Positions 5,615 to 43,159 of a stretch of 64,000 nt of DNA are shown here, one piece after another; position 1 is the first letter of the stretch; every line of letters begins with the position of its first letter. The notes under the pieces are model-generated. The model had not been told where the DNA came from. It saw only the letters and a list, made by a program, of their open reading frames with translations, and ran no database searches. Origin of the DNA: a virus (Duplodnaviria > Heunggongvirae > Uroviricota > Caudoviricetes); the IMG/VR virus record IMGVR_UViG_3300029305_004380, positions 2,042 to 66,041 of that record. One strand, given 5' to 3'. Made by a program: the position numbers and the translations under genes.

Positions 5615-5968
5615 CTAATTTATTTCCATCCAACCATTCCGTTGAATAATCATCCTCATGTTTTGAACTCCTACTGGATTCATGCTATGAATTCTAATAG
5701 GATAGTTACGTTTAGTTCCTTCAAGCCATTTGAGAAGTTCAATATAATTACCTCCTTGTGATACATACTCTCCAGCATCATGGTCTATATCTATAACTTC
5801 TAATTCAGTTAGTGGGAATTTTAACCCCCATGATTCTTCTTTTATATATCTATTTTCATTTTCCATCTTCATAATGATAGACTTTGCTTTGTTCACGGTC
5901 TTTACCCAAACATACCCTTTTGGTGCAGGCCTTATATCATCAACCCAAATCTTCATAATTTTCCTCAC
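5615..5968 (-). CDS. hypothetical protein (117 aa)
   Basis: ORF track. Confidence 0.5.
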   Translation of the reverse strand: MRKIMKIWVDDIRPAPKGYVWVKTVNKAKSIIMKMENENRYIKEESWGLKFPLTELEVIDIDHDAGEYVSQGGNYIELLKWLEGTKRNYPIRIHSMNPVGVQNMRMIIQRNGWMEIN

Positions 5969-8939: not shown

Positions 8940-9020
8940 TAGATTTTTTATAATTAAATAAAAAATTGTTATAATTATATAAAAATACAAATTATATTTA
9001 TATAATTATAACAATAATAT

Positions 9021-9251
9021 TTAAATATGTTCTATAGAAGAATTATCTTTAAAAAAATCAACCAATATATTTCTTACATATAAATCTTTTTTGTAATATG
9101 AATCATATCCTTTTTCTTTAGCCTTTTTATTTTTATGTACATAATATTCATTCCATACTTTATCTAACGCTTCTTTTTTAGAATTTGCTTTTACTATATA
9201 TTTATCATTATCACCACAAGGAACTATACATTCTACCAAATAAATACTCAC
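9021..9251 (-). CDS. hypothetical protein (76 aa)
   Basis: ORF track. Confidence 0.45.
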   Translation of the reverse strand: MSIYLVECIVPCGDNDKYIVKANSKKEALDKVWNEYYVHKNKKAKEKGYDSYYKKDLYVRNILVDFFKDNSSIEHI

Positions 9252-9266
9252 TCATATTCACTCCTA

Positions 9267-9488
9267 ACTAATCTATAAAATAAACAGTTTTACCTTTTTC
9301 ATATGCTAATGCTATATTTTTAACTAGTGTTTCAGCTTCTTTAGATGAATTAAATGAACCTATAATGGCTCTATTTGAATTATAGTCACTAAATGCTCTA
9401 ACATCTACATGATTTTCATTTTCCTCAATTGTAATAGAAAATTATCATAATTTATGTCTTTTCCATATTTTAAACTTATTACTCTCAT
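9267..9488 (-). pseudogene. small gene interrupted by an apparent -1 frameshift (27-codon start frame, then about 50 codons in the -1 frame)
   Basis: The ATG at 9488 overlaps the stop of gene 9488..9976 (TAATG). That frame stops after MRVISLKYGKDINYDNFLLQLRKMKIM. The -1 frame then continues with no start codon as ...ENENHVDVRAFSDYNSNRAIIGSFNSSKEAETLVKNIALAYEKGKTVYFID to a stop at 9267. Protein-like sequence persists across the break. Confidence 0.3.
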
Positions 9489-9976
9489 TATAAATCTCCT
9501 TTATCACTTATGTAATTGTCCCATATCATTTGTAGATAATCATAATAATCATATTGCATTGCCCATTCTACATCAGATTCTTTATTCCATGAAAATGCTT
9601 TTTTATTTGCAAATAACGCAAGAAATTTATTAAAATACTCTTTTTGACTTAAATTACCATTTATAGGTTCTCCATTAGGAAATAACGTTTTACATACAGG
9701 AACTATAGTTGCAAAATATGTATGAATATCTTTTATATCCATTTCTCTCTGAAACATTAACATCCAAGCAGCTTGATTTAAGTCTTGAATATTCTTACTT
9801 GTAATCTTAATAATATTAGATACTATATCATTAATATAAAGTGATAAATTTTGAGCATTTTCAAGTGAATTAGCAGAATATTTACTGATCATCGTTTTCA
9901 TTATAAATTCTGCATTTTTATCATTAAGTAAATCATTAATTTTTTGTTCATTTTCATCAGATATATATTTATTCAT
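9488..9976 (-). CDS. hypothetical protein (162 aa)
   Basis: ORF track. Confidence 0.5.
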   Translation of the reverse strand: MNKYISDENEQKINDLLNDKNAEFIMKTMISKYSANSLENAQNLSLYINDIVSNIIKITSKNIQDLNQAAWMLMFQREMDIKDIHTYFATIVPVCKTLFPNGEPINGNLSQKEYFNKFLALFANKKAFSWNKESDVEWAMQYDYYDYLQMIWDNYISDKGDL

Positions 9977-9977
9977 A

Positions 9978-10289
9978 TTAATATCCTCCTAATAAATCTC
10001 TTGTTACTTTTCCAGTTAATAAGTCACAAACTGTATTCATATTATGAGTTTTACTTACTAATTCTTTTATATCTTCAGAAGATAAATTAGTTAACTTATT
10101 TAATTCTTCTATAGCTTTATTAGCATGTTCCAATTTAGTTTTAAGTATTTCATTTTCTTTAATAAGTGAATATTTTTCATCCAACAATTCATCTCTACTT
10201 TTTGTTAATGTTTTGATAGTTTTATTTTTAGAATCTATAATTCCTTGAAAATGTTTTTCAGCGGCTGAAAATTTCTTTCCTTTTGACAT
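9978..10289 (-). CDS. coiled-coil protein (103 aa)
   Basis: ORF track; heptad-like K/E/L-rich sequence. Confidence 0.5.
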   Translation of the reverse strand: MSKGKKFSAAEKHFQGIIDSKNKTIKTLTKSRDELLDEKYSLIKENEILKTKLEHANKAIEELNKLTNLSSEDIKELVSKTHNMNTVCDLLTGKVTRDLLGGY

Positions 10290-10294
10290 TTTAC

Positions 10295-10552
10295 TTACAC
10301 CTCTTCCAACACTAAACGTTTAAAATTATTATTTAAAAAACTAACAACTACATTATCCTCGTGAAAATCTGTATATATTTCATCTCTTGTCACGTGTTCA
10401 AGTATTGCGTCGGTAACTATAATACGTCCATACTCTTCTTTTGTTATAAACCTTTTTATTCTAAAAAGTCTTAGATAACTAAATCTATTTTCAGGATTTA
10501 TCCCAATTATAATATCATCACGTTTAAAATTACAATTATAAAATTCATTCAT
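10295..10552 (-). CDS. hypothetical protein (85 aa)
   Basis: ORF track. Confidence 0.5.
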   Translation of the reverse strand: MNEFYNCNFKRDDIIIGINPENRFSYLRLFRIKRFITKEEYGRIIVTDAILEHVTRDEIYTDFHEDNVVVSFLNNNFKRLVLEEV

Positions 10553-10563
10553 TTAAATTCACC

Positions 10564-10938
10564 TCAAAATTGATATTCAGATGCACACTTGTTACAAACC
10601 TTTACTACTTCATTTTCTGAATCTACCGGTTCACCGCAACATTCACATATATTTCCATTAAATCTTTTAGATGGTCTTGTAATAGTTTTCTGTGAAAAAG
10701 TTGCTACTGGTTCTTCAATAGGAACTTCATGATAATCAATTCCTAATATTGTTTCTTCTTCATTTAGCTCTAATTCTCTATCAATAGGAGCTAAACGAAG
10801 TGAATATTTTAACTGATTTTTAGGGTGTCCATTAGTATGTGTAGCAATAGACGTAATATTAGCATCTCCGTGCATATACAAATAATTTCCAATAATTTGA
10901 TGTAATTCTGATAATTTTACTACTCTTTTAGTTTTCAT
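10564..10938 (-). CDS. protein with C-terminal zinc ribbon (124 aa)
   Basis: ORF track; CECCGEP...CNKC motif. Confidence 0.5.
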   Translation of the reverse strand: MKTKRVVKLSELHQIIGNYLYMHGDANITSIATHTNGHPKNQLKYSLRLAPIDRELELNEEETILGIDYHEVPIEEPVATFSQKTITRPSKRFNGNICECCGEPVDSENEVVKVCNKCASEYQF

Positions 10939-11161
10939 TGTATCATCTCCTTTTAATCAATATTGTCAAGTGCATCGATTAATCTTTCATACGACAATGA
11001 TCTTTCAACTCCAAAAACTTCTACGTCATCATCACTTCTTTTTCCACTACTTAATTTTTCAATTGATTCATTTAGCATCGATATTATATTTTTTGCATCT
11101 TCTATTGATAGTGTTATATTTTTCATATTTAGTATCTCCTTTACAACTATAATCTATTACA

Positions 11162-11190
11162 ATTATAACACATTCTTTTATAATTGTAAA
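11162..11190 (-). promoter_or_regulatory. sigma-A-type promoter P1 inside a conserved approximately 70 bp cassette
   Basis: Read on the minus strand: TTTACA at 11190-11185, a 17 bp spacer ending TGT, and TATAAT at 11167-11162. The cassette (about 11150-11225) also carries the upstream direct repeat TTACAATTATAA. Confidence 0.6.
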
Positions 11191-11271
11191 CCGTTTTTTT
11201 ATAATTGTAATTAAACTGTAATATTATTTATCTATTAGCTTTTCAATATTTTTATTATTTGACATAATTAC

Positions 11272-12525
11272 TCACTCCGATGACTTAAAATTATATACAG
11301 GCTTAATAAGCTTTATAATCTCTACTGTATCTTCAATATTATTTACAATATCATTAATATTCTTATATGCTTGAGGAGATTCATCGAGAGTACCTTCATT
11401 AATACATGTAGAATAAATACCTGTCATAGATTCTGCAAAATCAGAAAGACTAATAGTTTCTTTAGCTTTACCTCTACTCATTAATCTACCAGCACCATGA
11501 GGAGCTGAATTATTGTAATCCTCGTTTCCTTTACCTTTACAAATAAGAACTCCATCTCTCATATTAATAGGAATAACTAACATTTGTCCTTCATAAGCAG
11601 CGACCGCACCTTTTCTAATTATGTTATCATCTCCAATATAATTATGAATCGTATCAAACCATTCGGTCTTAATATTATATTTCCCTTTTTGTTTAATTCT
11701 TAACTTTCCACTAGTAGATAATTGAACTTGACAATCATTGAAATAATTCTTTATAAGTTCTTCAGCGATTGTAAATCTATTCAGTGCAGCGTATTTCTGA
11801 CAAATTCTCATATCATGTAAATATTTATCTTTATCTTCACCAATAAGATAAAGTAAATTTTTAGGAATCTTATCTAACTTTGACTTATAATTATTTATGG
11901 CTTCTTGAATATCAGATTCCCTTCCAGATGCTTTCATTTCTGCTATTAAGGAATTTATATTATTCTTATCTTCTTCCTTTCCAGCTTTATTTTGATAATA
12001 CTTACATACGTCTAATCCTAAATGTCTAGAACCAGTATGAATCATAAGATATTTGTTTCCTTCAAAATCTTCATCAATTTCACAAAAATGATTCCCCGAA
12101 CCAAGCGAGCCGATAGCTCTTAATACTTTATCATATTGATGTTTTACCACATCTTTATAACAATACATATTTTCAAGTTCGTCAAATTTCTTTTTCTGTT
12201 TTGAATTAACTTCAAATCCGAAAGCAACATTTTCACGAAGTATTTTATCAAATCTCTTATAATCTATATCAACATTTCCTAATGGAATTGTTAGTACACC
12301 ACAACCAATATCGACTCCAACTAAATTAGGAACTACTTTATCTCCTAAATTAGCTGTAAATCCTATAACACATCCTGCTCCAGCGTGACAATCAGGTTGA
12401 ATTCTTATTTTACAACCTTCAACAAAAGGCTGATTTAATAATTGTATTATCTGACATATACACTCATCTTCTATAACATCTGTAAATACTTTAGCAGTAC
12501 CATATTTTCCTTTAAGTTCTAACAT
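11272..12525 (-). CDS. rtcB: RtcB-family RNA 3'-phosphate/5'-OH ligase (417 aa after start trimming)
   Basis: RtcB signatures QPDCHAGAGCVIG, VGVDIGCGV and GSGNHFCEID. The start is reassigned to the ATG at 12525 (MLELKGK...), which has a GGAGG ribosome-binding site and overlaps the stop of the upstream gene. The ORF-track N-terminus at 12570 is a read-through artefact. Confidence 0.85.
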   Translation of the reverse strand: MLELKGKYGTAKVFTDVIEDECICQIIQLLNQPFVEGCKIRIQPDCHAGAGCVIGFTANLGDKVVPNLVGVDIGCGVLTIPLGNVDIDYKRFDKILRENVAFGFEVNSKQKKKFDELENMYCYKDVVKHQYDKVLRAIGSLGSGNHFCEIDEDFEGNKYLMIHTGSRHLGLDVCKYYQNKAGKEEDKNNINSLIAEMKASGRESDIQEAINNYKSKLDKIPKNLLYLIGEDKDKYLHDMRICQKYAALNRFTIAEELIKNYFNDCQVQLSTSGKLRIKQKGKYNIKTEWFDTIHNYIGDDNIIRKGAVAAYEGQMLVIPINMRDGVLICKGKGNEDYNNSAPHGAGRLMSRGKAKETISLSDFAESMTGIYSTCINEGTLDESPQAYKNINDIVNNIEDTVEIIKLIKPVYNFKSSE

Positions 12526-12526
12526 T

Positions 12527-12838
12527 TTATTCCTCCACTTTTGTAGGTTTATAAAGAGTAGCATCTTCAAGTTCTTCTAAATCGTAAATAATGCTATTAA
12601 GTTTATCTATTACAAGTTCATTAACTTTAAATCCATTTTTATCAATAATACGTTTATCATAACTTATATGATGAATAGCTTCATCTATTCGGCTATATGC
12701 TTCTTTTATTAACCCTTTATATTTTTTATTTTCATTTTCATCTCTTGGAGTTATTTCATAAGCTTTCATAATGTTAATCCTCTCTATAATAAATTCTATA
12801 ATTTTTAAATATAACTCTATTAATAAGTTTAGTCCCAA
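12527..12838 (-). CDS. hypothetical protein (103 aa)
   Basis: ORF track; its stop abuts the rtcB start. Confidence 0.5.
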   Translation of the reverse strand: MGLNLLIELYLKIIEFIIERINIMKAYEITPRDENENKKYKGLIKEAYSRIDEAIHHISYDKRIIDKNGFKVNELVIDKLNSIIYDLEELEDATLYKPTKVEE

Positions 12839-13530
12839 TATGCGTTAATATTTTCATAATCAGGATAATTTTCTTTCATATAAGCGTCTAACTTTACTCT
12901 TAAAGCATCTTTTATCTTATTATCACTGTCATAATCACCTACAGGTGGTATACACTCTGTACTAAAAATAACTATTTCACCATCTTTTACAATTCCTTGA
13001 TAATCTGAATTTTTCCACACTTCATAATCAGAACTTTCATCTGCAACACGAGTCACAATAGTTTGATATCTTGTATTAAAGTTGATAAATGCATCTCTAT
13101 CATAAAATGCAGCTTTATAAAAGAAATCTGCTCTCTTTTTTCCCTTATTGTCAAATAAATTATTCCACATTGAATGGTCCGTTGCTTCAATTTTCCAACC
13201 TTCAGGAAGTACTACATTATAAAATAAATCGTCGCACTCATCAACAATAACAATTCCCATTTTCTCATATTGTTGTCTTGTGTATTTAATGTTATTTTGC
13301 ATAATAATCTTGTGTCTTTCTTCCCATTCCATTGAATCCTCTACACCGTTCCATCTTACCTCATTTGGCAGACAAACGTCATTTAACTTCTTTGGTAGTC
13401 TTTGATTTCTTACAACTGATTGTTGACCTCTTCTTTCCTGATTTTCAATAGCTTTAGAAGGATTTTCACCTTCCATTGCATATAGTATTGCATCCATAAA
13501 AGTAATCATATTATCATTATTCATTTTCAT
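12829..13530 (-). CDS. hypothetical protein (233 aa)
   Basis: ORF track. Confidence 0.5.
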   Translation of the reverse strand: MKMNNDNMITFMDAILYAMEGENPSKAIENQERRGQQSVVRNQRLPKKLNDVCLPNEVRWNGVEDSMEWEERHKIIMQNNIKYTRQQYEKMGIVIVDECDDLFYNVVLPEGWKIEATDHSMWNNLFDNKGKKRADFFYKAAFYDRDAFINFNTRYQTIVTRVADESSDYEVWKNSDYQGIVKDGEIVIFSTECIPPVGDYDSDNKIKDALRVKLDAYMKENYPDYENINAYWD

Positions 13531-13536
13531 TCTCCT

Positions 13537-13821
13537 TTAATTAAAATTAGGTTCGTATTTGACAGCTTTTTGTTCTTTAGTATATTCTACTTTACCACAT
13601 TTCTTACAAGTTCTACTCCATCTATCCACTTTCTTTTCAGTATGACCAACTAATTCAGGATAATAATCTGATCCTTGGAATCTTGTCTCATATCTTGGTT
13701 CTTTTACTATTTCCGGGTCAAACTTTACTTTATCCCATTCATGACAACAATTAGATTGTTCTCTATGTAGTTCTCTTAATTCTCTTTCATATCTAGCTCT
13801 TATTTCTTCTTCTCTTGTCAT
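13537..13821 (-). CDS. zinc-ribbon protein (about 94 aa, start trimmed to the second ATG)
   Basis: CCHEW...CKKCGK motif. A GGAGG ribosome-binding site lies 8 nt upstream of the ATG at 13821. The upstream 18 nt of the ORF-track call is the ribosome-binding region. Confidence 0.5.
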   Translation of the reverse strand: MTREEEIRARYERELRELHREQSNCCHEWDKVKFDPEIVKEPRYETRFQGSDYYPELVGHTEKKVDRWSRTCKKCGKVEYTKEQKAVKYEPNFN

Positions 13822-13835
13822 AATTAAACCTCCAA

Positions 13836-13955
13836 TCATATATATTTACATTTTCTAAAGTTTTGACATTTTCGACATCTAACCCAGTATAAATATTCTT
13901 TACCTTTGGTTATTTTACTTAATTCTTTACAAGATTTATTCATCATATCTTTCAT
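13836..13955 (-). CDS. 39 aa Cys-rich miniprotein (MKDMMNKSCKELSKITKGKEYLYWVRCRKCQNFRKCKYI)
   Basis: Manual translation; the start follows a tandem TAA TAA stop of the upstream small gene. The stop TGA lies in the ribosome-binding-site region of the next gene. Confidence 0.3.
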   Translation of the reverse strand: MKDMMNKSCKELSKITKGKEYLYWVRCRKCQNFRKCKYI

Positions 13956-13959
13956 ATTA

Positions 13960-14127
13960 TTATTCATCAAATTCATCAAATTCATTCACTTCTTCTTTTA
14001 ATTCTTCTAAACAATTTCTACATAATGGAATTCTAATACCATTTACTATCAAAACACCTTTAGTGGTGTTTCCACATATATCGTAGTTTTCATCAAAGTA
14101 ATCTTTTACTTCTAATTTAATAGACAT
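13960..14127 (-). CDS. 55 aa zinc-ribbon miniprotein with acidic FDEFDE tail
   Basis: Manual translation gives MSIKLEVKDYFDENYDICGNTTKGVLIVNGIRIPLCRNCLEEL... A GGAGG ribosome-binding site lies 8 nt upstream. The ATG follows the stop of gene 14131..14349. Confidence 0.35.
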   Translation of the reverse strand: MSIKLEVKDYFDENYDICGNTTKGVLIVNGIRIPLCRNCLEELKEEVNEFDEFDE

Positions 14128-14130
14128 GAT

Positions 14131-14349
14131 TTATTCCTCCAATTCATAATTATGTACTCTACTATAATCTATATTTTCACCCAACCATGACAACATTGTA
14201 GAAGTTAATTCTCCATCAATATATAGATTTACTATCCCGCTATGAATACTTCCATCACTAGCAATTGCAACTTTTTCAAAATTAAATATTTCAAACGTTC
14301 GTCCATCTTTTAAATAACCTTTTGAATTTACGTTTATAATTACCGTCAT
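14131..14349 (-). CDS. hypothetical protein (72 aa)
   Basis: ORF track. Confidence 0.45.
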   Translation of the reverse strand: MTVIINVNSKGYLKDGRTFEIFNFEKVAIASDGSIHSGIVNLYIDGELTSTMLSWLGENIDYSRVHNYELEE

Positions 14350-14412
14350 ATGATACTCCTTATTTGAATAACTGCTTTCTAAGATTTTTATTATTTAAAT
14401 ATTTTTCTTATA

Positions 14413-14688
14413 TTAATAAAATTCTTTTTCAAGACGAATATTATTTTCTTTTACTAATAAACTGAGTTTTTCTTTTTCACAAACCAATTTATTATATTTA
14501 TCTTCAAACATCTTATATTTTTCACAAGTTTTATCGTACGAATTAAAACATTTTATTGCATCGCCTGCCCATTCAATATCTTCATTAATCTTTTTAATCT
14601 GATTTAAAAGTCTCTCTTGACTTCTAATTAATTTTTCAAATTCTTCAAATGAACCATTCTTCCATTTTAACATTTGTTCTAAAGTCAT
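14413..14688 (-). CDS. hypothetical protein (91 aa after trimming; first gene behind P2)
   Basis: Start moved to MTLEQMLKWKNG at 14688, which has an AAGGAGG ribosome-binding site. The upstream 50 codons of the ORF-track call run through promoter P2 and a terminator hairpin. Confidence 0.5.
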   Translation of the reverse strand: MTLEQMLKWKNGSFEEFEKLIRSQERLLNQIKKINEDIEWAGDAIKCFNSYDKTCEKYKMFEDKYNKLVCEKEKLSLLVKENNIRLEKEFY

Positions 14689-14719
14689 TTTATTAACCTC
14701 CTTTATATTTTCTAATATA

Positions 14720-14748
14720 ATTATAACATAAAAATTTATAATTGTAAA
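14720..14748 (-). promoter_or_regulatory. sigma-A-type promoter P2 inside the conserved cassette
   Basis: Read on the minus strand: TTTACA at 14748-14743, a 17 bp spacer ending TGT, and TATAAT at 14725-14720. The start of gene 14688 lies about 30 nt downstream. Confidence 0.65.
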
Positions 14749-14784
14749 CCCTTTTCTTATAATTGTAATAAAACTGTAAAAATA

Positions 14785-14815
14785 AAAGGAGTCTCTTATG
14801 AGACTCCTTTTTATA
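14785..14815 (-). terminator. intrinsic terminator hairpin (GGAGTCTC / GAGACTCC) with flanking A and T runs
   Basis: An 8-10 bp GC-containing stem and a 6 nt loop. A-run on one side and T-run on the other, so it is bidirectional. It is immediately upstream (in transcription order) of the P2 cassette. Confidence 0.6.
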
Positions 14816-15137
14816 TTAATAATATTTAAACTATACACTATATTTTTAATAACTTATCATATAAACAAAACAAACAAATAACTAAAAATCTAATTTATAC
14901 TCATTTTTACTCGGCACAATACATTTACATTCACTTCATAATAAACTTTAAAGAGGTAATCTATATCAAATAGTTTAAATATTATGATTATATTTTATTA
15001 TTAATTTTATCTATTAATAACTGTTTACAAATATTTAATGCAATCACCCATTCAGAATTTATATATTCATCCGATTCAATATAATCATTTATTAATCTTA
15101 TAATTTCTTGATAAGTCATTTCATATCACATCTTTCA

Positions 15138-15659
15138 TCATAATTGAGGTAACATTTCCAATAATTCTTCAATCTTATTTTTAGTATTATCAGATAATAT
15201 CATTTTATCTTTATTATTATCATACCAATGCTTTGCAGTACTTTTAGGATTATTATATTTAAATGATGACCAATCACATAACATTTCTATAATACAATTT
15301 AAAGGCATATCTAATATTTTTTGTTCACCTGAATCTTTTTGTAAAATCCAATATTGCCAATGATGATCATTACATTTTTGATGATGGTTCCAAGCTTCAT
15401 CATATAATGCTTCATTATCGGCACCTGCTTTAGATGGATAAAAATGATGCAAATATGGATAAAATTCTACATCATCATACTTAGATGCATCATGATTATT
15501 TATTTTATGTTCTAATTCATGCTCATTAAAATCAAACATTGTTAAAAGATCATCTTTTATAGATTCATAAGATTTCTTAACGCCATCTATATGATTTTCT
15601 AAATATTTATAATATTCTTCAGATCTATCAGATACTCTTTCAGTTAATATTTTCAACAT
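15138..15659 (-). CDS. HD-like metal-dependent hydrolase family protein, paralogue A (173 aa)
   Basis: Shares the motifs HD-x-SK, LHH, HHW(Q/E)YW and (L/I)CDW with 18677..19219. Confidence 0.5.
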   Translation of the reverse strand: MLKILTERVSDRSEEYYKYLENHIDGVKKSYESIKDDLLTMFDFNEHELEHKINNHDASKYDDVEFYPYLHHFYPSKAGADNEALYDEAWNHHQKCNDHHWQYWILQKDSGEQKILDMPLNCIIEMLCDWSSFKYNNPKSTAKHWYDNNKDKMILSDNTKNKIEELLEMLPQL

Positions 15660-15720: not shown

Positions 15721-15996
15721 TTATTCATTTATAAGTTTTCTTACAGTAGGTGAAAATCTAAATTTAGGATTTTTCTTAGCAGGACTTACTTTTTCTTCAC
15801 CTGTTTTTGGGTTTCTTACTACTCTTTCAGGTTGATCTATTGCTTCAAATTTTCCAAAACTATAAATTTCTACCTTTTCACCATTCTTTAAATTTTCATT
15901 TACTAATTGTACAAATGTATCAATAACCCCTGTAACAGTGTTAATTGATTCTCCTGTAGATATTGCAATCTTTTCGATTAATTCTTGTTTTTTCAT
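15721..15996 (-). CDS. HU/IHF-family histone-like DNA-binding protein (91 aa after start trimming)
   Basis: MKKQELIEKIA...FGKFE...RNPKTGEE is a classic HU signature. A GGAG ribosome-binding site precedes the ATG at 15996. Confidence 0.8.
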   Translation of the reverse strand: MKKQELIEKIAISTGESINTVTGVIDTFVQLVNENLKNGEKVEIYSFGKFEAIDQPERVVRNPKTGEEKVSPAKKNPKFRFSPTVRKLINE

Positions 15997-16022
15997 AATA
16001 TTTCTCCTTTTATTTAATAATA

Positions 16023-16325
16023 TCACTGCTTATTATATTCATCTAATGCTTTATAAATAGCAGTTTCAAACTTAACACGTGTATCAGCTGTAATAGGATG
16101 ATATATATCAAAAAATCCAGAAACCGGATTATTTTTTTCATCCAATGCAGTGATTTTTTGTGATGGAAATGCAATAAACTTTTTCTTATTTCCATTTTCT
16201 ATTTTTTCAATAACCCTAATATTATGCAAAACCATTTCATTGTCTATTAATACTGAAACTAATGCTTTAACAGGTTTAGTAGGATCATTATAAACTTTTT
16301 TTACTTGAACGCTTGTAATTATCAT
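16023..16325 (-). CDS. spoVG: SpoVG-like protein (100 aa)
   Basis: The pattern VxVL(I)DNEMVLHNIRVIE...FIAFPS...DIYHPIT(A)DTR matches the SpoVG family consensus. Confidence 0.7.
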   Translation of the reverse strand: MIITSVQVKKVYNDPTKPVKALVSVLIDNEMVLHNIRVIEKIENGNKKKFIAFPSQKITALDEKNNPVSGFFDIYHPITADTRVKFETAIYKALDEYNKQ

Positions 16326-17097: not shown

Positions 17098-18258
17098 TTA
17101 AATTAATTTATCTACATGTTGAAATTCATCTAATGTAAATTCATAAACTTTATTTTGAGTATGATTTTGAAATACAACATCTTTATCACTTATTATATTA
17201 TAATCGTTTGTAAATGTGTTCATTATTTCTTTAGAAATCCATTCTATAAATTTAACCGGAACACCTTGAGCTAAACATTGAATTGTAGGAATTTTACATT
17301 CATTAGGATAAAATATAAAATCATCCGGATAGCCCATTATTCTAGCATATTCTCTTATATATAAATCTCTATTTTCTACAGGATGAATAAATTGAGCTAA
17401 ACTAGTCATTGAAGGAGCCACTCCGTCAAAATCAAGTCTATATGAAGATTTATCCCATAATCTTTCTCCATTATTTTTCTTTTCAATAAAAGATTTTACT
17501 TGTTTTTTATGTTCATTCGGAATTTTTTCAATGTCTAGATTATTTAAATTGTTGTATAATCCACACATTAAAGATTCATTATGTTTTACATATCTATAAA
17601 ATTCTTCCATATTTTTAATAGCTCTGTTATTATCAAATTCCATATTGGGTGTGTCAGGAGTTAAACCTTCAAATATTTCTTTTATTGTTGTTTTATTTTG
17701 TTTAACAAATTTTATTTCAGGTATTTTTTCATATTTATTTTTATTCCAACCTACAATCATAGTTCTTAATCTTCTCATACTTACACCATGATTTCCAGCC
17801 ATATCTCGTATGATTGTAAATTTATACTTTTCACCTAATATATTCACCATATCTTTTAAAATAGGTAATCCTAAAGTCACGACTGTTGGTGCATTTTCTA
17901 TTAAAAATGTATCAGGATTTAAATGATTTATAATATCAAATACTTCATAAAATCTATTATTTACTTTATTATCTACTTTTGCATTTTTATTTATAGAACT
18001 TAATCCAGAGCATGGATTATTTGAATATAATAAGTTATAATGTTTTTCTTTTAAAGTGTCTAAGAATGCATTTTGAGACCACTCTGATGGTCTCTTAATA
18101 TTTATATTAGGATAATTCTTACAAAAATGATACGCATTAGTATCTGTCATATCTTCAGTCATTTCTAAAACAGTATCTATTTTCCATCCTGTATTTAAAT
18201 GTCCTATGGTCTGACTCCCAGAAAATATATATGCACCTATAGCTGATAATTCATTCAT
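17098..18258 (-). CDS. divergent C5-cytosine methyltransferase-fold protein (386 aa)
   Basis: C5-MTase motif order is recognisable: motif I-like IFSGSQTIG (glycines replaced), motif II LEMTED, motif IV NPCSGLS (PCQ becomes PCS), motif VI FLIENAPTV (ENV), motif VIII RRLRTMIVGW and C-terminal motif X-like QGVPVKFI. Confidence 0.7.
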   Translation of the reverse strand: MNELSAIGAYIFSGSQTIGHLNTGWKIDTVLEMTEDMTDTNAYHFCKNYPNINIKRPSEWSQNAFLDTLKEKHYNLLYSNNPCSGLSSINKNAKVDNKVNNRFYEVFDIINHLNPDTFLIENAPTVVTLGLPILKDMVNILGEKYKFTIIRDMAGNHGVSMRRLRTMIVGWNKNKYEKIPEIKFVKQNKTTIKEIFEGLTPDTPNMEFDNNRAIKNMEEFYRYVKHNESLMCGLYNNLNNLDIEKIPNEHKKQVKSFIEKKNNGERLWDKSSYRLDFDGVAPSMTSLAQFIHPVENRDLYIREYARIMGYPDDFIFYPNECKIPTIQCLAQGVPVKFIEWISKEIMNTFTNDYNIISDKDVVFQNHTQNKVYEFTLDEFQHVDKLI

Positions 18259-18676: not shown

Positions 18677-19219
18677 TCATTTTTCATATGTTTTTTCATA
18701 TTTTTTAATAATATCTTTTAACTTAAATCTACCAGAGCTATAATCATGTAATACATTAAATAAAAATGTATAAGTATCTAAATGTATTTTTATTTTACCA
18801 CTATTGTATAATCTATTAAAAGTTTTAAAAGGAATATCACAGGTCCAATTATCTTTATTATATGCTTTTCCAGCTCCTATCCAATCACATATCATTTCTT
18901 TAACATATTTAATTGGCATTTTTAATGCTTCTCCACCTGAAGAAAGATTATCAATCCAATATTCCCAATGATGTGGATTTCTTCCTCTATGATGTAACCA
19001 TGCGTATGAATATCCTTTTTCATCTTTTTCATTATCAATTGGACTTCTATCACCTGTATAATATTTAGCAGAATTAAAAAATTCAGAAAAACTAAATTTA
19101 GACCAATCATGCATAAATCCTCTAAAAGGAATTCCAGCTTCAACAGATGCTAAAAACACATAATATTTATGTCTGTTTATTATAGCAAAATGTTTTAATA
19201 ATTTTTTATAATATTTCAT
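18677..19219 (-). CDS. HD-like metal-dependent hydrolase family protein, paralogue B (180 aa)
   Basis: H-x25-HD-x-SK, WLHH, HHWEYW and ICDW motifs shared with 15138..15659. Confidence 0.5.
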   Translation of the reverse strand: MKYYKKLLKHFAIINRHKYYVFLASVEAGIPFRGFMHDWSKFSFSEFFNSAKYYTGDRSPIDNEKDEKGYSYAWLHHRGRNPHHWEYWIDNLSSGGEALKMPIKYVKEMICDWIGAGKAYNKDNWTCDIPFKTFNRLYNSGKIKIHLDTYTFLFNVLHDYSSGRFKLKDIIKKYEKTYEK

Positions 19220-19814: not shown

Positions 19815-19848
19815 TTAAAAAAACTCCAAATTTTATTTGGAGTTTTTT
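19815..19848 (-). terminator. intrinsic terminator (AACTCCAAA / TTTGGAGTT) overlapping the stop of the SpoIIID-like gene
   Basis: A 9 bp stem and 5 nt loop, followed by a T7 run in the minus-strand reading. Confidence 0.6.
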
Positions 19849-20093
19849 AGTATTAAATATTTGTGTTTAGTTGCCATGCCACCACGAATATGTTTATCTT
19901 TAAAATTTGATGCAACTAATTTTCTAACTTTTTGATATAATCTTTTATCAATGTATGGTAATTTATAAAGAAAATCGTATGACAATGTAGATTTACCAAT
20001 TCCAAACACTTTAGCAGTTTTTCGTATTGTAGATTTATTATCTACGTAATAAATTGCACAAGCTTTTATTCTATTCTCAAGTTGTTCGTTCAT
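19833..20093 (-). CDS. spoIIID: SpoIIID-like HTH transcriptional regulator (about 86 aa, start trimmed)
   Basis: AKVFGIGKSTLSYD...LP...KHIRGGMATKHKY matches the SpoIIID family (AKEFGVSKSTVHKD...IRHxRGGxATKxKY). A GGAG ribosome-binding site lies 9 nt upstream of the ATG at 20093. Confidence 0.7.
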   Translation of the reverse strand: MNEQLENRIKACAIYYVDNKSTIRKTAKVFGIGKSTLSYDFLYKLPYIDKRLYQKVRKLVASNFKDKHIRGGMATKHKYLILKNSK

Positions 20094-20142
20094 ATAAATC
20101 AACTCCTTTAATTATATTTTATTAAAGGAATCAATAAATATA

Positions 20143-23179: not shown

Positions 23180-24181
23180 TTACTTATTGAATTTAATAGC
23201 ATTTTCATTAAATAAAGTATTATCACATTCCACAAAATAGTCAAATAGTGGTAACGCTAACTCTCTCATTTGAGGATGAGCAGCTTTGTCACATCTTAAT
23301 TCAAAGAAATGTCCCCATTCATAATTATGAGCAGTCATTATAATTTCAGTTTTTAAACTGTTACCAAGTACACTTCTAGCTTCTTGAGGAGTAGCTCCTA
23401 ATTCTAATAACTCAAAGTATGCTTTTTCTGAAGCTTTTATTGCATCTCTCCAAACATGATACTTGTTTCTTTCAACACTTTGAAGTTCTGCTTCACCATC
23501 AAACATTAATGGGTCAATCACCGTGATATTATTATCAAATTTATCTTTAGAATAATTACAATATCTTGTAGATTCTTGAGCATATGAAGAATCCCTATGT
23601 CTAACGATTTCATGTGATACACCTCTATCACAAATAAATTTAATAGATTTCCATCCGTGCATCCATTGTTCTTCTGGAATTAATGTATTAATATCATCGA
23701 TTTTAGTCCAATTATTTCTATGTACTTTTTTAAATTTATTACCAAATAATTCATCACAATCATAATCTAAGACTATTTGCTCACATAATTCAATTAAATG
23801 TTCTTTCATATAACTATTAGTCTTATAAGCTTCTAATAAATCTAAAAGAGACCTTGCGCTAAACGACAATATATATCTTAATTTTGTTTCAAAATTACCT
23901 TCATCATTACATGAAATAATTTCTGTCGTACTAGATGTTATATATTTTTCATTACTTAATATTTTAAAAAATAAATTATTAGGAGTATTACATTGATATA
24001 CAAATATAAAATGTTCTAACATCGCCCAATGTTTTTTATCATATAAATTTTTAATCATTTTTTTATGACTTTCATCAGTTATTAAATCTTCTGATTTATA
24101 ACAAATTCTTGCAATTTTTTCAATATGTTTTTGAGGATTGTCATCATACATTTCTTTAAATGACGGCTTTATAATTTTCAT
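23180..24181 (-). CDS. thyX: flavin-dependent thymidylate synthase ThyX (333 aa)
   Basis: ThyX signature RHRDSSYAQESTRY (RHR-x6-QESTRY). A GGAG ribosome-binding site is present. Confidence 0.85.
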   Translation of the reverse strand: MKIIKPSFKEMYDDNPQKHIEKIARICYKSEDLITDESHKKMIKNLYDKKHWAMLEHFIFVYQCNTPNNLFFKILSNEKYITSSTTEIISCNDEGNFETKLRYILSFSARSLLDLLEAYKTNSYMKEHLIELCEQIVLDYDCDELFGNKFKKVHRNNWTKIDDINTLIPEEQWMHGWKSIKFICDRGVSHEIVRHRDSSYAQESTRYCNYSKDKFDNNITVIDPLMFDGEAELQSVERNKYHVWRDAIKASEKAYFELLELGATPQEARSVLGNSLKTEIIMTAHNYEWGHFFELRCDKAAHPQMRELALPLFDYFVECDNTLFNENAIKFNK

Positions 24182-30314: not shown

Positions 30315-30668
30315 TTATTCTTTATAAAAAATTAATTTATACACACAAGTATGTGTAGTTAATTTATCAATATTTATGTCTTCTATTATTAATTCTATTC
30401 CCATATCTGCATATTGTGATATGAGTATTTTACCTATCTCCAACATGATATTTTGTATATCATCTATTTTTAATCTATAATTATCCAAATTAATAGTAAA
30501 AACATATGTGATTTGTCTTGATGATTTTAGGTTTACTTCTTTTTCATAATCTATAACATATTTATTATCAACTATAAGTTGAAAATTCATAGGTATTTTT
30601 AATTTCTTAGGATTATAAAAATTTATTTGCATATTAATCATTTCTCCATTCTTCACATTTGAATCCAT
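30315..30668 (-). CDS. hypothetical protein (117 aa)
   Basis: ORF track. Confidence 0.5.
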   Translation of the reverse strand: MDSNVKNGEMINMQINFYNPKKLKIPMNFQLIVDNKYVIDYEKEVNLKSSRQITYVFTINLDNYRLKIDDIQNIMLEIGKILISQYADMGIELIIEDINIDKLTTHTCVYKLIFYKE

Positions 30669-34803: not shown

Positions 34804-34930
34804 TGGTCGGAATTAAGAGATTCGAACTCTTCTTAATAAATTAATTGTCAAATACAAAATTTTTAAAGGGGAAGTTTCATTTAGTATATTTTAATTTATT
34901 AAGTGTATAACCACTTTATACCTAATTCCG
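34804..34930 (-). ncRNA. aberrant tRNA-like element: intact acceptor stem, D-arm and T-arm with CCA, but a 13 bp helix plus 46 nt loop where the anticodon arm should be
   Basis: Minus-strand read: CGGAATT-AG-GTAT-AAAGTGGTT-ATAC-A-[CTTAATAAATTAA ...46 nt... TTAATTTATTAAG]-AAGAG-TTCGAAT-CTCTT-AATTCCG-A-CCA. The 7 bp acceptor is perfectly paired and the T-loop is canonical. No 5+7+5 anticodon arm can be drawn. Confidence 0.4.
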
Positions 34931-35097: not shown

Positions 35098-35186
35098 TGG
35101 TGCAAGAGAAGGGATTCGAACCCTCAATTCCTCACGGACGACGGATTTTAAGTCCGTTGCATATACCAAAATTCTGCCACTCTTGC
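35098..35186 (-). tRNA. tRNA-Leu (anticodon UAA), type II with long variable arm, CCA encoded
   Basis: Manual cloverleaf. Acceptor GCAAGAG/CTCTTGC, 3 bp D-stem, anticodon stem ACGGA/TCCGT, loop CT-TAA-AA, 15 nt variable arm, T-arm GAGGG-TTCGAAT-CCCTT, discriminator A, CCA. Length 89 nt. Confidence 0.85.
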
Positions 35187-35359
35187 ATGTAAATCATAAG
35201 AATCACCCACTAATTATTAAATAATAACCACTACATTTATATTTAATAATTGCCCACTATCTTACATTAAATCTCTAAAGATTCTACCCGTATGCTTTAT
35301 TAATTAAAAAAGTTGAACAGAAAAAATGAAACAAAGCTATTCATATTACTATGAATATT

Positions 35360-35433
35360 TGGCTGGGGTAAATGGAATCGAACCAATACTCTAAGAATCA
35401 AAATCTTATGTACTACCGTTATACTATACCCCA
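35360..35433 (-). tRNA. tRNA-Gln (anticodon UUG), CCA encoded
   Basis: Manual cloverleaf. Acceptor TGGGGTA/TACCCCA, D-stem GTAT/GTAC, anticodon stem TAAGA/TCTTA, loop TT-TTG-AT, T-loop TTCGATT, discriminator G, CCA. Length 74 nt. Confidence 0.8.
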
Positions 35434-41857: not shown

Positions 41858-43159
41858 TTAAAAATCAATATTTCTATCTTTAAGTGATTTTTTTATTAAA
41901 TATTTTCTATTAGATAATTGTTTAGGTGTTATATTTAATGTTCCACATATAGTATCAACATCATACGTATTACAATCGTTTAGAAATTGTTTTAATCCTT
42001 CTATGTCATCATATTTAATAGTTGGCTGCCAGTTCTTTGGTCTTTTACCTTTTTTCTTATTTTTATCAGAGACTAATAGTTTATCATTATTCATTTCATT
42101 TTTAGTGTCTACCTCTGGTTTATTTTTTTCGTTATCTATTAAATCTTTATAATTAATACCTTTTCTTTTTAAAAATGATTGTATTGCACTTTTTTTATCA
42201 TAAAGTTTTTGAATATTTTCTAAGTTGTATTTTTTCATACAAGATGCTTTACTCATACTATAATAATCTTTTATAAATTGTGTTGAAAATTCAATTGTAT
42301 ATCTTACCGTGTTTGCTTTTCTATTATCTTTTTTCTCAATATCTTCTTCTTTGATTGCTTCATTTGAAGATTTAATTGATTGTTCAAATATATTTTTCGC
42401 AGGAGTTAATGTATTTCCAATAGATTTGTATAAATATATTAAAGAATTTAAAATATCATCTAATTTTTTAGAATTAGCAACATATAAATCTTTTACTATT
42501 TTTAAATCCTCATGAAATGAAACGGTTGACTTATTTGTTTCATCTATCATTGATTTTAAGTTGGTTATATTATCATTTGTGGTTATAAACTTATTTTGTA
42601 TGTCTGTAAAAGAATTAATATAATTAACAGTGTCTCTACTATTCACATTGTTAACGTGTTCTTCATATTTAGTAAATTTATCTTCAATATATTTATCAAA
42701 CTTAGCAGTTTTTTGTTTGATAATTAAATTTAAAGTAGATTCCAGTTTATTTAAAAAATCAAGAGAAGATAATTCCCGTTCTGATATATTTAAATCAAAT
42801 TCTACAGCAAGGGCTATATCTATTTTTTTCATAACTAATTCAGATAATCTACCTATATATTCACCTAAATCATGTTTATTAATACACCTACATTGTTCTA
42901 ATAAAATTACTTGCGGTCTACCTTCAAATTCATAATAAACTTGATATGGTCCTACTGAAGATTTAGGTCTGGTGGTTATAGGAGCTATAGTTACTACATC
43001 ACCTTTTTTATTTCCTATATCATTTGATATAATAACTACTGGTCTTTTTTTACCTTCAATTCTATTAGGTTGTATATCTCCTAAATCATAATAATAAACA
43101 TTTCCTCTACTAAATACGTCCAACATTAATCTTTCTCCTTTGTATAACAATTTATCCAT
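41858..43159 (-). CDS. MazF/PemK/EndoA-family endoribonuclease domain fused to about 300 aa C-terminal extension (433 aa)
   Basis: Residues about 15-125 match the EndoA/MazF family closely: RGNVYYYDLG...GKKRPVVIISNDIGN...VAPIT...VILLEQCRCINK...KIDIALAVEF. The rest is coiled-coil, Lys-rich, with a possible C-terminal HTH. Confidence 0.7.
   Translation of the reverse strand: MDKLLYKGERLMLDVFSRGNVYYYDLGDIQPNRIEGKKRPVVIISNDIGNKKGDVVTIAPITTRPKSSVGPYQVYYEFEGRPQVILLEQCRCINKHDLGEYIGRLSELVMKKIDIALAVEFDLNISERELSSLDFLNKLESTLNLIIKQKTAKFDKYIEDKFTKYEEHVNNVNSRDTVNYINSFTDIQNKFITTNDNITNLKSMIDETNKSTVSFHEDLKIVKDLYVANSKKLDDILNSLIYLYKSIGNTLTPAKNIFEQSIKSSNEAIKEEDIEKKDNRKANTVRYTIEFSTQFIKDYYSMSKASCMKKYNLENIQKLYDKKSAIQSFLKRKGINYKDLIDNEKNKPEVDTKNEMNNDKLLVSDKNKKKGKRPKNWQPTIKYDDIEGLKQFLNDCNTYDVDTICGTLNITPKQLSNRKYLIKKSLKDRNIDF

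What the first reader, a model, noticed from the sequence alone, without database searches (positions are those of the whole stretch)
11272..12525. RtcB RNA ligase in a phage carrying its own tRNAs: a likely tRNA-repair countermeasure
RtcB seals 2',3'-cyclic-phosphate and 5'-OH RNA ends, which are the products of anticodon nucleases (PrrC, RloC, colicin-like) and of MazF-type RNases. The phage encodes tRNAs, a tRNA-like element and its own MazF-domain protein. RtcB may repair tRNAs cleaved by host abortive-infection nucleases, or by the phage's own nuclease. This differs from the T4 Pnkp/Rnl1 solution.
Basis: partly seen in the sequence, partly recalled or inferred. Interest (0 to 1): 0.5.

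Follow-up and report, generated by a model that had tools for sequence, protein, structure and literature searches.

The report
Ordinary RtcB RNA ligase in jumbo phage
The gene is a genuine, intact RtcB RNA-sealing enzyme in an uncultivated large gut phage, most likely used to repair RNAs cut by host defences; such genes are common in phages and this role has already been proposed, so the finding is sound but ordinary.

Summary
Window 11272-12525 (minus strand) encodes a 417-aa RtcB. It scores 190.8 bits on Pfam PF01139 (cutoff 27) and 409 bits on PHROG 1075. The AlphaFold model (pLDDT 88.9) matches only RtcB structures. All metal ligands and the GMP-accepting histidine are present and invariant in relatives.

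The gene is under purifying selection (dN/dS 0.14). It keeps its genomic slot across a lineage of roughly 180-260 kb gut-metagenome phages.

I also found a cRec "cyclic-phosphate processing" gene 5 kb away, RlaP plus a CCA-adding enzyme in the closest relatives, and a 16-tRNA array near rtcB in a 258-kb relative. The protein is closer to E. coli RtcB1 (tRNA repair) than to RtcB2 (rRNA repair), and there is no PrfH.

RNA repair as a counter-defence is the best reading. The RNA target is inferred, not shown.

The MazF link is not supported, because the MazF fusion is almost unique to this phage while RtcB is conserved.

RtcB homologs occur in 683 phage records, and the repair hypothesis was published in 2021. 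This is a new member of a known kind, of low interest.

The parts
11272..12525 (-). rtcB coding sequence (417 aa plus stop): 3'-phosphate/2',3'-cyclic-phosphate to 5'-OH RNA ligase
   Evidence: ORF. Pfam PF01139 at 190.8 bits. PHROG 1075 at 409 bits. AF2 model pLDDT 88.9, and the top 16 Foldseek PDB hits are all RtcB. Catalytic residues D45, H47, D72, C75, N145, H146, H163, H294 and H343 are invariant. dN/dS is 0.14.
12532..12536 (-). Shine-Dalgarno GGAGG, 6 nt upstream of the rtcB ATG; the upstream gene's stop is at 12527-12529
   Evidence: Read directly from the sequence.
14720..14811 (-). Possible start of the transcription unit that ends with rtcB: a terminator-like 12-bp hairpin with a T-run (14811-14784), then TTTACA-17-TGnTATAAT (14748-14720). 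Weak inference.
   Evidence: Consensus scan. Promoter-like sites are not enriched over shuffles (59 found versus 50.4 +/- 6.9 expected), so this is only a suggestion.
5615..5968 (-). cRec (cyclic-phosphate processing Receiver) domain protein, 117 aa; a candidate RNA-end-processing partner. The association is inferred, not shown.
   Evidence: PF20274 at 61.6 bits against a cutoff of 27. PHROG 1479, function unknown. Iyer et al. 2021 predict the function and report operonic linkage to RNA ligases.
35360..35433 (-). tRNA-Gln(UUG), CCA encoded; the one tRNA found in all six sampled tRNA clusters of the lineage, the window's included
   Evidence: ARAGORN. Rfam 63 bits. Relatives.
35098..35186 (-). 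tRNA-Leu(UAA), CCA encoded
   Evidence: ARAGORN. Rfam 57.1 bits.
34804..34930 (-). tRNA-like element with a 7-bp acceptor stem, D arm, T arm (UUCGAAU loop), discriminator A and CCA, but a ~72-nt arm with a perfect 13-bp stem in place of the anticodon arm. No relation to RtcB has been shown.
   Evidence: Not called by ARAGORN or Rfam. The fold is a cloverleaf at -23.1 kcal/mol, z -2.7, with 0 of 200 shuffles folding as well. It is the only over-length hit with an encoded CCA in a structural-motif scan of the window plus 11 loci (the one other over-length hit, L002 8581-8732, lacks CCA and reuses the 3' half of a canonical tRNA). No copy was found in relatives or in JGI metagenomes.
41858..43159 (-). 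MazF/PemK-domain protein (N-terminal ~125 aa) fused to a ~310-aa tail of unknown function.
   Evidence: PF02452 at 71.7 bits. PHROG 1936. E 7e-15 to S. aureus and B. subtilis MazF, with Arg and Thr kept at the positions aligned to MazF RPV and AAIT. Only one distant full-length homolog.

Best explanation
The gene encodes a catalytically competent RtcB-type RNA ligase.

From the established chemistry of the family, His343 would be guanylylated by GTP with two Mn2+ ions. One ion would be held by Cys75, His163 and His294, and the other by Asp72, Cys75 and His146. GMP is then passed to an RNA 3'-phosphate, after a 2',3'-cyclic phosphate has been opened, and the 5'-OH end attacks to re-form a normal phosphodiester bond.

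In this large phage the enzyme most likely acts during infection. It would re-seal translation RNAs, most probably tRNAs nicked in the anticodon loop, that metal-independent host defence RNases cut to abort infection. This complements the phage's own replacement tRNAs.

Shown here: enzyme identity, an intact active site, the fold, purifying selection, conservation in the lineage, and co-occurrence with other RNA-end-processing genes. Inferred: the activity itself, the timing, tRNA as the substrate, and which nuclease is countered.
For: Identity. Pfam 190.8 bits and PHROG 1075 at 409 bits. The profile aligns to P. horikoshii RtcB at E 1e-24, mapping D65, H67, D95, C98, N202, H203, H234, H329 and H404 onto D45, H47, D72, C75, N145, H146, H163, H294 and H343. 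All of these are invariant in 16 homologs of 52-80% identity. The residue roles come from the RtcB review PMC10630183. The AF2 model has pLDDT 88.9 and pTM 0.88. Foldseek returns only RtcB structures as significant hits, at E 1e-21 to 1e-15 and TM 0.52-0.66.

Selection and conservation. dN/dS is 0.14 against the 80%-identical ortholog. Orthologs lie in the same HU / small-ORFs / RtcB slot in 201-kb and 258-kb relatives.

Repair context. There are two phage tRNAs and a cRec gene 5.3 kb downstream on the same strand. The closest relatives carry RlaP plus an HD-domain CCA-adding enzyme beside their tRNA cluster. A 16-tRNA array lies 5-9 kb from rtcB in L010. Lineage tRNA sets are rich in U34 species (Gln-UUG in all sampled clusters, plus Lys-UUU, Glu-UUC and Leu-UAA).

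Subfamily. 139 bits to EcRtcB1 against 72 bits to EcRtcB2. EcRtcB1 repairs tRNAs and EcRtcB2 does not (PMC9304027).

The same role for phage RtcB is proposed in PMC7824862.
Against: - There is no biochemical or genetic evidence for any phage RtcB in the searched literature.
- The host and its nucleases are unknown.
- Every immediate neighbour of rtcB is an ORFan in Pfam and PHROGs, so no operon partner points to a substrate.
- cRec is 5 kb away, is not syntenic in L001, and its function is only predicted.
- The U34-rich tRNA set could simply reflect AT-rich codon usage.
- The higher similarity to EcRtcB1 than to EcRtcB2 is only 28% versus 23% identity, and substrate choice cannot be read from that.
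Confidence: 0.6

Rival explanations
1. Ribosomal RNA repair. The ligase would re-join 16S (or 23S) rRNA cut by ribosome-targeting toxins, as E. coli RtcB2 does together with PrfH.
For: RtcB paralogs can be strictly rRNA-specific (PMC9304027). The N-terminal half gives sub-threshold hits to the RtcB2-type NCBIfam models NF007153 (104.7 bits) and TIGR03073 (80.5 bits). Some homologs in C. difficile phages are annotated 'release factor H-coupled RctB'.
Against: Both NCBIfam scores are far below their cutoffs of 407 and 271.8. No release-factor/PrfH domain turned up in the Pfam scans of the predicted ORFs of at least 50 aa across the window. The protein scores twice as high against EcRtcB1 as against EcRtcB2.
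Confidence: 0.1
2. A self-contained cut-and-reseal circuit. The phage's own MazF-domain RNase cuts host or phage RNAs, leaving 2',3'-cP and 5'-OH ends, and RtcB reverses or edits those cuts.
For: The MazF domain keeps the Arg and Thr aligned to the MazF RPV and AAIT motifs, so it is probably an active RNase. MazF cleavage products are the end types that RtcB joins (family knowledge). In relative L003 a PemK-family gene lies 2.4 kb upstream of rtcB.
Against: The MazF fusion has just one distant (34%) homolog among 5.8 billion proteins. RtcB, by contrast, has about 38 clusters at 54% identity or more, including on 201-258 kb genomes. RtcB is therefore retained without this MazF. The two genes are 30 kb apart. 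L003's PemK is unrelated in sequence to the window's. MazF-carrying isolate phages (Lactobacillus and gut Lachnospiraceae phages) and RtcB-carrying ones (Mycobacterium, Bacillus, Listeria and others) barely overlap.
Confidence: 0.05
3. RNA maturation rather than repair. RtcB would join ends produced during processing of a phage RNA, for example the unique long-arm tRNA-like element, or it would circularise an RNA.
For: RtcB is the tRNA-splicing ligase of archaea and animals (family knowledge). A tRNA-derived element with a 72-nt arm replacing the anticodon arm lies in the tRNA cluster.
Against: The element is absent from every relative sampled, and those relatives still carry RtcB. No splicing endonuclease or Archease domain is in the window. 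ARAGORN in intron mode finds no intron-bearing tRNA. Removing the arm does not leave a canonical anticodon loop (my reading of the sequence).
Confidence: 0.05
4. Non-specific RNA or nucleic-acid end maintenance. The ligase would broadly seal any broken RNA during infection, or cap DNA 3'-phosphate ends, with no dedicated link to host defence.
For: RtcB enzymes have broad in vitro substrate range, and some paralogs cap DNA ends (family knowledge; M. xanthus RtcB3 is cited in PMC9304027). The gene sits in a region rich in DNA-metabolism genes.
Against: Other tRNA- and RNA-end-specific genes (CCA-adding enzyme, RlaP, cRec, tRNA arrays) recur in the lineage. That points to translation RNAs rather than generic ends.
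Confidence: 0.15

Closest known systems
Phage RtcB family (PHROG 1075), e.g. Bacillus Bastille-like phages (Deep Blue, Bcp1), Clostridioides phage phiCD211, Dulem virus 39
   Same: Full-length match at 409 bits. 44-50% identity over 97-100% of the protein. Same length class (about 395-425 aa) and the same catalytic motifs. Also carried by large phages that have their own tRNAs.
   Different: At most 50% identical to any isolate or GenBank phage protein, with no DNA-level match. It carries a ~22-aa insertion (CQVQLSTSGKLRIKQKGKYNIK) shared only with its own lineage and a few others. The host lineage is uncultivated.
E. coli RtcB1 (rtcBA operon, RtcR-regulated; tRNA repair shown in vitro)
   Same: 28% identity over the full length, E 2e-41. 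All catalytic residues align. Stand-alone ligase with no Archease.
   Different: No RtcA cyclase or RtcR regulator nearby. Carried by a phage rather than being a cellular stress operon.
E. coli RtcB2-PrfH ribosome rescue and repair pair
   Same: Same Pfam family and the same chemistry.
   Different: Only 23% identity and 72 bits. The NCBIfam RtcB2 models score far below cutoff. There is no PrfH.
Phage T4 Pnkp + Rnl1 tRNA repair against PrrC
   Same: Same proposed biological logic: the phage re-joins tRNA cut by an abortive-infection nuclease.
   Different: Unrelated enzymes and chemistry. T4 heals the ends (kinase/phosphatase) and then seals 5'-P to 3'-OH with an ATP-dependent ligase. RtcB seals 3'-P or cyclic-P directly to 5'-OH using GTP. 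No Rnl or Pnkp domain is in the window.

Membership tests
RtcB 3'-phosphate RNA ligase (Pfam PF01139) | Sequence score above the family's curated threshold over most of the domain | tested here: met
   190.8 bits against a cutoff of 27; best stretch is residues 86-414 on profile positions 90-425 of 426. PHROG 1075 covers residues 1-416.
RtcB 3'-phosphate RNA ligase (Pfam PF01139) | RtcB fold | tested here: met
   AF2 model pLDDT 88.9 and pTM 0.88. The 16 significant Foldseek PDB hits are all RtcB (human, P. horikoshii, T. thermophilus, zebrafish), and the next hit has E 0.18.
RtcB 3'-phosphate RNA ligase (Pfam PF01139) | Two-metal site: Asp95, Cys98, His203, His234, His329 (P. horikoshii numbering) | tested here: met
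   These align to D72, C75, H146, H163 and H294 and are invariant in 16 homologs. Roles are taken from PMC10630183.
RtcB 3'-phosphate RNA ligase (Pfam PF01139) | Guanylylated histidine (His404) in the HGAGR motif | tested here: met
   H343 lies in SAPHGAGRLMSR and aligns to H404. It is invariant.
RtcB 3'-phosphate RNA ligase (Pfam PF01139) | GTP/Mn2+-dependent joining of 3'-P or 2',3'-cP ends to 5'-OH ends | not testable with these tools
   Needs purified protein.
RtcB2-PrfH ribosome repair system | Equivalog-level match to the RtcB2 models (TIGR03073, NF007153) | tested here: not met
   80.5 bits against 271.8, and 104.7 bits against 407. 72 bits to EcRtcB2 against 139 bits to EcRtcB1.
RtcB2-PrfH ribosome repair system | Adjacent prfH (release factor H) gene | tested here: not met
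   No release-factor domain among the predicted ORFs of at least 50 aa in the window. The flanking genes are ORFans.
Cellular rtcBA-rtcR RNA repair operon | rtcA cyclase and the RtcR CARF/sigma54 activator next to rtcB | tested here: not met
   Neither domain is found in the window. Compare the E. coli locus.
Archaeal/eukaryal tRNA splicing pathway (endonuclease + RtcB + Archease) | Splicing endonuclease, Archease, and intron-containing tRNA genes | tested here: not met
   No such domains are present. ARAGORN intron mode finds none. The long-arm tRNA-like element is not a canonical intron-bearing tRNA.
T4-type Pnkp/Rnl1 tRNA repair | ATP-dependent Rnl1/Rnl2 ligase plus polynucleotide kinase-phosphatase | tested here: not met
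   No Rnl or PNK domain is in the 64-kb window; the only other ligase is an NAD-dependent DNA ligase at 51435-53450. The rest of the genome was not visible.
Phage counter-defence against anticodon nucleases (functional class) | Loss of the gene sensitises the phage to a tRNA-cleaving host system | not testable with these tools
   Host unknown. No published test of any phage RtcB was found.

The most novel reading that the evidence does not exclude
In this phage, RtcB acts on the unique 127-nt tRNA-like RNA at 34804-34930. That RNA has acceptor, D and T arms and CCA, with a 72-nt hairpin replacing the anticodon arm. One version is cleavage-and-religation of the long arm to mature or switch the RNA, which would be protein-dependent tRNA splicing in a bacteriophage. 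Another is that the RNA serves as a decoy substrate that soaks up anticodon nucleases and is recycled by RtcB.
Probability: 0.03. Interest if true: 0.75.

Novelty: new member of a known kind. Interest (0 to 1): 0.18.

Why it matters
RtcB is a frequent but experimentally untested accessory gene of large phages. If phage RtcBs really undo tRNA cleavage, they are a general counter to a fast-growing list of tRNA-cutting defences (PrrC, RloC, PARIS, retron effectors, Cas13, Schlafen-like and OLD-family nucleases).

This locus adds a divergent, well-conserved example from an uncultivated gut jumbo-phage lineage. That lineage also shuffles other RNA-end tools (cRec, RlaP, CCA-adding enzyme) and variable tRNA sets. 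This supports the picture of a "replace and repair" toolkit, but it does not change it. With no host and no isolate, this phage is not the best system for testing the idea.

Tried and rejected
1. A megablast of 9000-15000 against GenBank phages found nothing, so the phage has no close sequenced isolate.

2. The search for related loci with the single RtcB protein in IMG/VR found no relative.

3. The look-up of encoding contigs for the exact window protein found nothing on record.

4. I looked for partners next to rtcB. All seven flanking ORFs have no Pfam or PHROG family.

5. For whole-window Pfam scans I concatenated ORFs with linkers. The 'Serglycin' (GS linker) and 'PRIMA1', 'Mito_fiss_reg' and 'CR_prot_dom_plant' (poly-P linker) hits are artefacts of that and were discarded.

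6. I tested whether the tRNA-like element is an intron-bearing tRNA or a conserved RNA. ARAGORN with intron and pseudogene options was negative. Rfam was negative. BLAST against 9 related loci was negative. A structure-aware pattern scan of JGI metagenomes gave 0 hits. That collection does not even contain the source contig, although the pattern does match the window. The element remains a singleton, so no covariation test was possible.

7. I compared the element's arms with the tRNAs that relatives carry at that position. No ortholog was found.

8. The promoter scan was not informative in this AT-rich DNA (59 sites versus 50 expected).

9. I considered membership of the RtcB2/PrfH system and rejected it.

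10. I considered a conserved MazF-RtcB module and rejected it.
Full report
**Observation**

The window is 25% GC, and all of its roughly 99 ORFs of 50 aa or more that tile the sequence lie on the minus strand. The ORF in question runs 11272-12570 on the minus strand.

The ATG at 12525 is the true start. A GGAGG lies 6 nt upstream, and the preceding gene ends with TAA at 12527-12529. PHROG 1075 aligns from residue 1 of the 417-aa form.

**Identity**

- The protein matches Pfam RtcB (PF01139) at 190.8 bits, against a cutoff of 27.
- It matches PHROG 1075 "tRNA splicing ligase" at 409 bits.
- A single-sequence search of the PDB gave only weak hits. A profile built from 16 homologs (alignment A1) hits P. 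horikoshii, T. thermophilus and human RtcB at E 1e-24 to 1e-20.
- Counting along those alignments, P. horikoshii D65, H67, D95, C98, N202, H203, H234, H329 and H404 correspond to D45, H47, D72, C75, N145, H146, H163, H294 and H343. All nine are invariant across A1.
- According to the RtcB review PMC10630183, one Mn2+ is held by Cys98/His234/His329, the other by Asp95/Cys98/His203, and GMP is attached to His404.
- An AlphaFold2 model built from A1 is confident (pLDDT 88.9, pTM 0.88). Its only significant Foldseek PDB matches are 16 RtcB chains, at E 1e-21 to 1e-15 and TM 0.52-0.66. The next hit has E 0.18.

**Is the gene maintained?**

The exact protein is on a 114.6-kb JGI contig. About 38 clusters at 54-93% identity exist, some on contigs of 201, 208 and 258 kb.

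Against the 80%-identical ortholog in L001, the nucleotide identity is 78.6% and Nei-Gojobori dN/dS is 0.14.

The gene order RecA - SpoIIID - DUF5662 - C5-methylase - SpoVG - HU - (DUF5662) - small ORFs - RtcB is kept in the 201-kb relative. It is largely kept in the 258-kb relative as well. RtcB is thus a conserved gene of this lineage.

**What the genome is**

Whole-window Pfam scans were run on concatenated ORFs, with linker artefacts discarded. They show:

- RecA, an AAA ATPase, ThyX, dUTPase and dCMP deaminase;
- a TAGT-like glycosyltransferase and a ThyA-like enzyme;
- SbcC/SbcD-like proteins, a Toprim primase, a helicase, a 5'-3' exonuclease and an NAD-dependent DNA ligase;
- a sigma factor, GroES, HU, SpoVG, SpoIIID and a C5 methylase.

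PHROGs adds a gp32-like SSB and a RuvC-like resolvase.

A lineage-specific 172-aa marker protein has about 115 relatives, many on 177-258 kb contigs. One is labelled Caudoviricetes sp. and one was binned with Candidatus Onthovivens, a genus of Bacilli.

I conclude that this is an uncultivated jumbo-phage lineage of low-GC gut Firmicutes. No structural gene was recognised within the window itself.

*tRNAs.* Leu(UAA) and Gln(UUG) are confirmed.

*tRNA-like element.* By reading the tRNA region I found an element at 34804-34930 (minus strand). It has these features:

- an acceptor stem CGGAATT/AATTCCG;
- a D arm;
- a T arm AAGAG-TTCGAAT-CTCTT;
- a discriminator A and an encoded CCA;
- a ~72-nt arm with a perfect 13-bp stem where the 17-nt anticodon arm should be.

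It folds as a cloverleaf (-23.1 kcal/mol, z -2.7, 0 of 200 shuffles as good). ARAGORN (including intron mode) and Rfam both miss it.

A structural-motif scan of the window plus 11 related loci recovered most of the ARAGORN-called tRNAs. Apart from those, this is the only over-length element with an encoded CCA. One other over-length hit, L002 8581-8732, has no CCA and reuses the 3' half of a canonical tRNA. The element is therefore tRNA-derived and not a chance match.

It has no copy in any relative sampled or in JGI metagenomes. Its function cannot be assessed by covariation.

*MazF-domain protein.* The 433-aa ORF at 41858-43159 has an N-terminal PemK/MazF domain (71.7 bits; PHROG 1936). It aligns to S. 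aureus and B. subtilis MazF at E 7e-15. Arg and Thr are retained at the positions aligned to the MazF RPV and AAIT motifs. That these are the catalytic Arg and Thr is my own family knowledge.

1. The 117-aa ORF at 5615-5968 is a cRec "cyclic-phosphate processing Receiver" domain protein (PF20274, 61.6 bits). It has the acidic WVDDIRP and IDIDHDAG motifs. Iyer et al. 2021 predict that cRec opens 2',3'-cyclic phosphates, and they report operonic links to RNA ligases. The activity is untested. Here the gene is 5.3 kb from rtcB.
2. The two closest relatives at the tRNA locus (L008, L009) encode RlaP (PF10127) and a CCA-adding enzyme with an HD domain, right beside their tRNA cluster. RlaP is the RNA-ligase-associated nucleotidyltransferase (PMC12776372).
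3. In the 258-kb relative, a 16-tRNA array lies 5-9 kb downstream of rtcB.
4. tRNA sets vary among relatives. Gln(UUG) is in every sampled cluster, and Lys(UUU), Glu(UUC) and Leu(UAA) recur. From general knowledge, these U34-modified tRNAs are the classic targets of PrrC-type and gamma-toxin-type anticodon nucleases. AT-rich codon usage is an equally simple explanation.

**Which RtcB subfamily?**

E. coli has two characterised paralogs. RtcB1 repairs tRNAs. RtcB2, together with PrfH, repairs only 16S rRNA cut in the decoding centre (PMC9304027). I retrieved both from E. coli genomes.

| Comparison | Bits | Identity |
|---|---|---|
| Phage RtcB vs EcRtcB1 | 139 | 28% (full length) |
| Phage RtcB vs EcRtcB2 | 72 | 23% |
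| EcRtcB1 vs EcRtcB2 | 122 | 27% |

The RtcB2-type NCBIfam models score far below their cutoffs, and there is no PrfH in the window. This modestly favours an RtcB1-like enzyme, but it does not prove the substrate.

**The MazF alternative**

Several results argue that RtcB's conserved role does not depend on this MazF:

- The MazF fusion has only one distant (34%) homolog in the 5.8-billion-protein database. RtcB is conserved across the lineage.
- In isolate phages only the N-terminal domain is found, mostly in Lactobacillus and gut Lachnospiraceae phages. RtcB is found mostly in Mycobacterium, Bacillus, Listeria and other phages.
- L003 has a PemK gene 2.4 kb from rtcB, but it is unrelated in sequence to the window's MazF domain.

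**Mechanism proposed**

RtcB is an active GTP/Mn2+ 3'-phosphate RNA ligase. This is inferred from the intact site and fold. During infection it most likely re-seals translation RNAs nicked by metal-independent host RNases, tRNAs being the best candidate. It would work alongside phage-encoded replacement tRNAs, and in different members of the lineage alongside cRec, RlaP or a CCA-adding enzyme.

A terminator-like hairpin at 14811-14784 followed by an extended -10 promoter-like site at 14748-14720 may place rtcB at the end of a 3.4-kb unit of small ORFan genes. Promoter-like sites are not enriched in this AT-rich DNA, so this is weak.

**Comparison with what is known, and novelty**

RtcB homologs occur in 683 of 50,697 phage records and form a large PHROG. 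The proposal that phage RtcB ligases repair tRNAs cut by host RNases is in print (PMC7824862).

I found no experimental test of any phage RtcB. The biological role therefore remains an open but already well-posed question.

The window's protein is at most 50% identical to any GenBank phage protein, and it belongs to an undescribed jumbo-phage lineage. I file it as a new member of a known kind.

The items that are actually unusual in this window lie outside the finding: the singleton long-arm tRNA-like element, the near-unique MazF fusion, the cRec gene, and a conserved non-coding block in the tRNA cluster.

Noticed in passing
window 34804-34930 (-): A tRNA-derived element with intact acceptor, D and T arms and an encoded CCA, but a ~72-nt arm (perfect 13-bp stem CUUAAUAAAUUAA/UUAAUUUAUUAAG) in place of the anticodon arm. 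ARAGORN and Rfam miss it. It is unique among the phages sampled. It could be a disrupted tRNA gene or a stable tRNA-like RNA comparable to the T4 species 1/2 RNAs (that comparison is from memory).
   Followed up: partly
window 5615-5968 (-): A cRec (cyclic-phosphate processing Receiver, PF20274, 61.6 bits) domain protein with WVDDIRP and IDIDHDAG acidic motifs. It is a predicted but never tested 2',3'-cyclic phosphodiesterase, reported to associate with RNA ligases.
   Followed up: partly
window 41858-43159 (-): A MazF/PemK RNase domain, retaining the Arg and Thr aligned to the MazF RPV and AAIT motifs, fused to a ~310-aa C-terminal region with no family match. No obvious antitoxin gene is nearby. 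Only one distant (34%) full-length homolog exists in 5.8 billion proteins.
   Followed up: partly
window 35187-35292 (-); L002 7984-8072; L004 7756-7800; L008 9537-9647: A conserved non-coding block inside the tRNA clusters of four phages (74-82% identity). It has three TAGTGG-like repeats and a small hairpin showing two compensatory pair changes. It may be a small RNA or a protein-binding site.
   Followed up: partly
L008 5998-8470; L009 2242-4680: The closest relatives carry RlaP (PF10127) and a CCA-adding enzyme with an HD domain between the 172-aa marker gene and the tRNA cluster. The window has only intergenic DNA and tRNAs at that position.
   Followed up: no
window 36855-38135, 38152-38874, 49525-50451, 23180-24181, 36193-36735, 17098-18258: A gene set suggesting DNA base hypermodification: a TAGT-like glycosyltransferase, dCMP deaminase, a ThyA-like enzyme matching only part of the thymidylate synthase profile (possibly a dNMP hydroxymethylase), ThyX, dUTPase and a C5 methylase. 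Relatives swap in NTP-transferases and sugar enzymes (L003, L006, L007) or a queuosine/7-deazaguanine set (L011, 16723-21275).
   Followed up: no
window 16023-16325, 19833-20102, 15721-16026, 56514-57230: Phage copies of SpoVG, SpoIIID, HU and a sigma factor. These point to a Firmicute (possibly spore-forming) host and to phage meddling with host regulation. One relative contig was binned with Candidatus Onthovivens (Bacilli).
   Followed up: partly
window 15138-15659 and 18677-19219 (-): Two paralogous DUF5662 proteins (105 and 117 bits) that are histidine-rich (HHWQYW / HHWEYW motifs). Both copies are also present in the 201-kb relative L001.
   Followed up: no
window 30634-31005 (-): A DUF488-N3a ('active DUF488-N3 subclade') protein. 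It is also present in L001, where it sits next to an intein-containing ThyX.
   Followed up: no
L011 5198-6448 and 12494-13582: Two IS605 OrfB/TnpB (Cas12f-like) genes on the opposite strand flank the rtcB region in a 61%-identical relative.
   Followed up: no
L010 16576-20707 and 16673-17143: The 258-kb relative has a 16-tRNA array and a NADAR (ADP-ribose processing) gene just downstream of rtcB.
   Followed up: no
window 57445-60555, 61746-63971, 27233-29830 (-): Three very large proteins (1036, 741 and 865 aa) with no Pfam or PHROG match at all. The first two may be structural or tail-fibre proteins of this lineage.
   Followed up: no
window 31209-32786 (-): A 525-aa membrane-anchored SPFH/Band-7 (flotillin-like) protein with a long Ala/Glu/Lys-rich coiled coil. 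This is unusual cargo for a phage.
   Followed up: no
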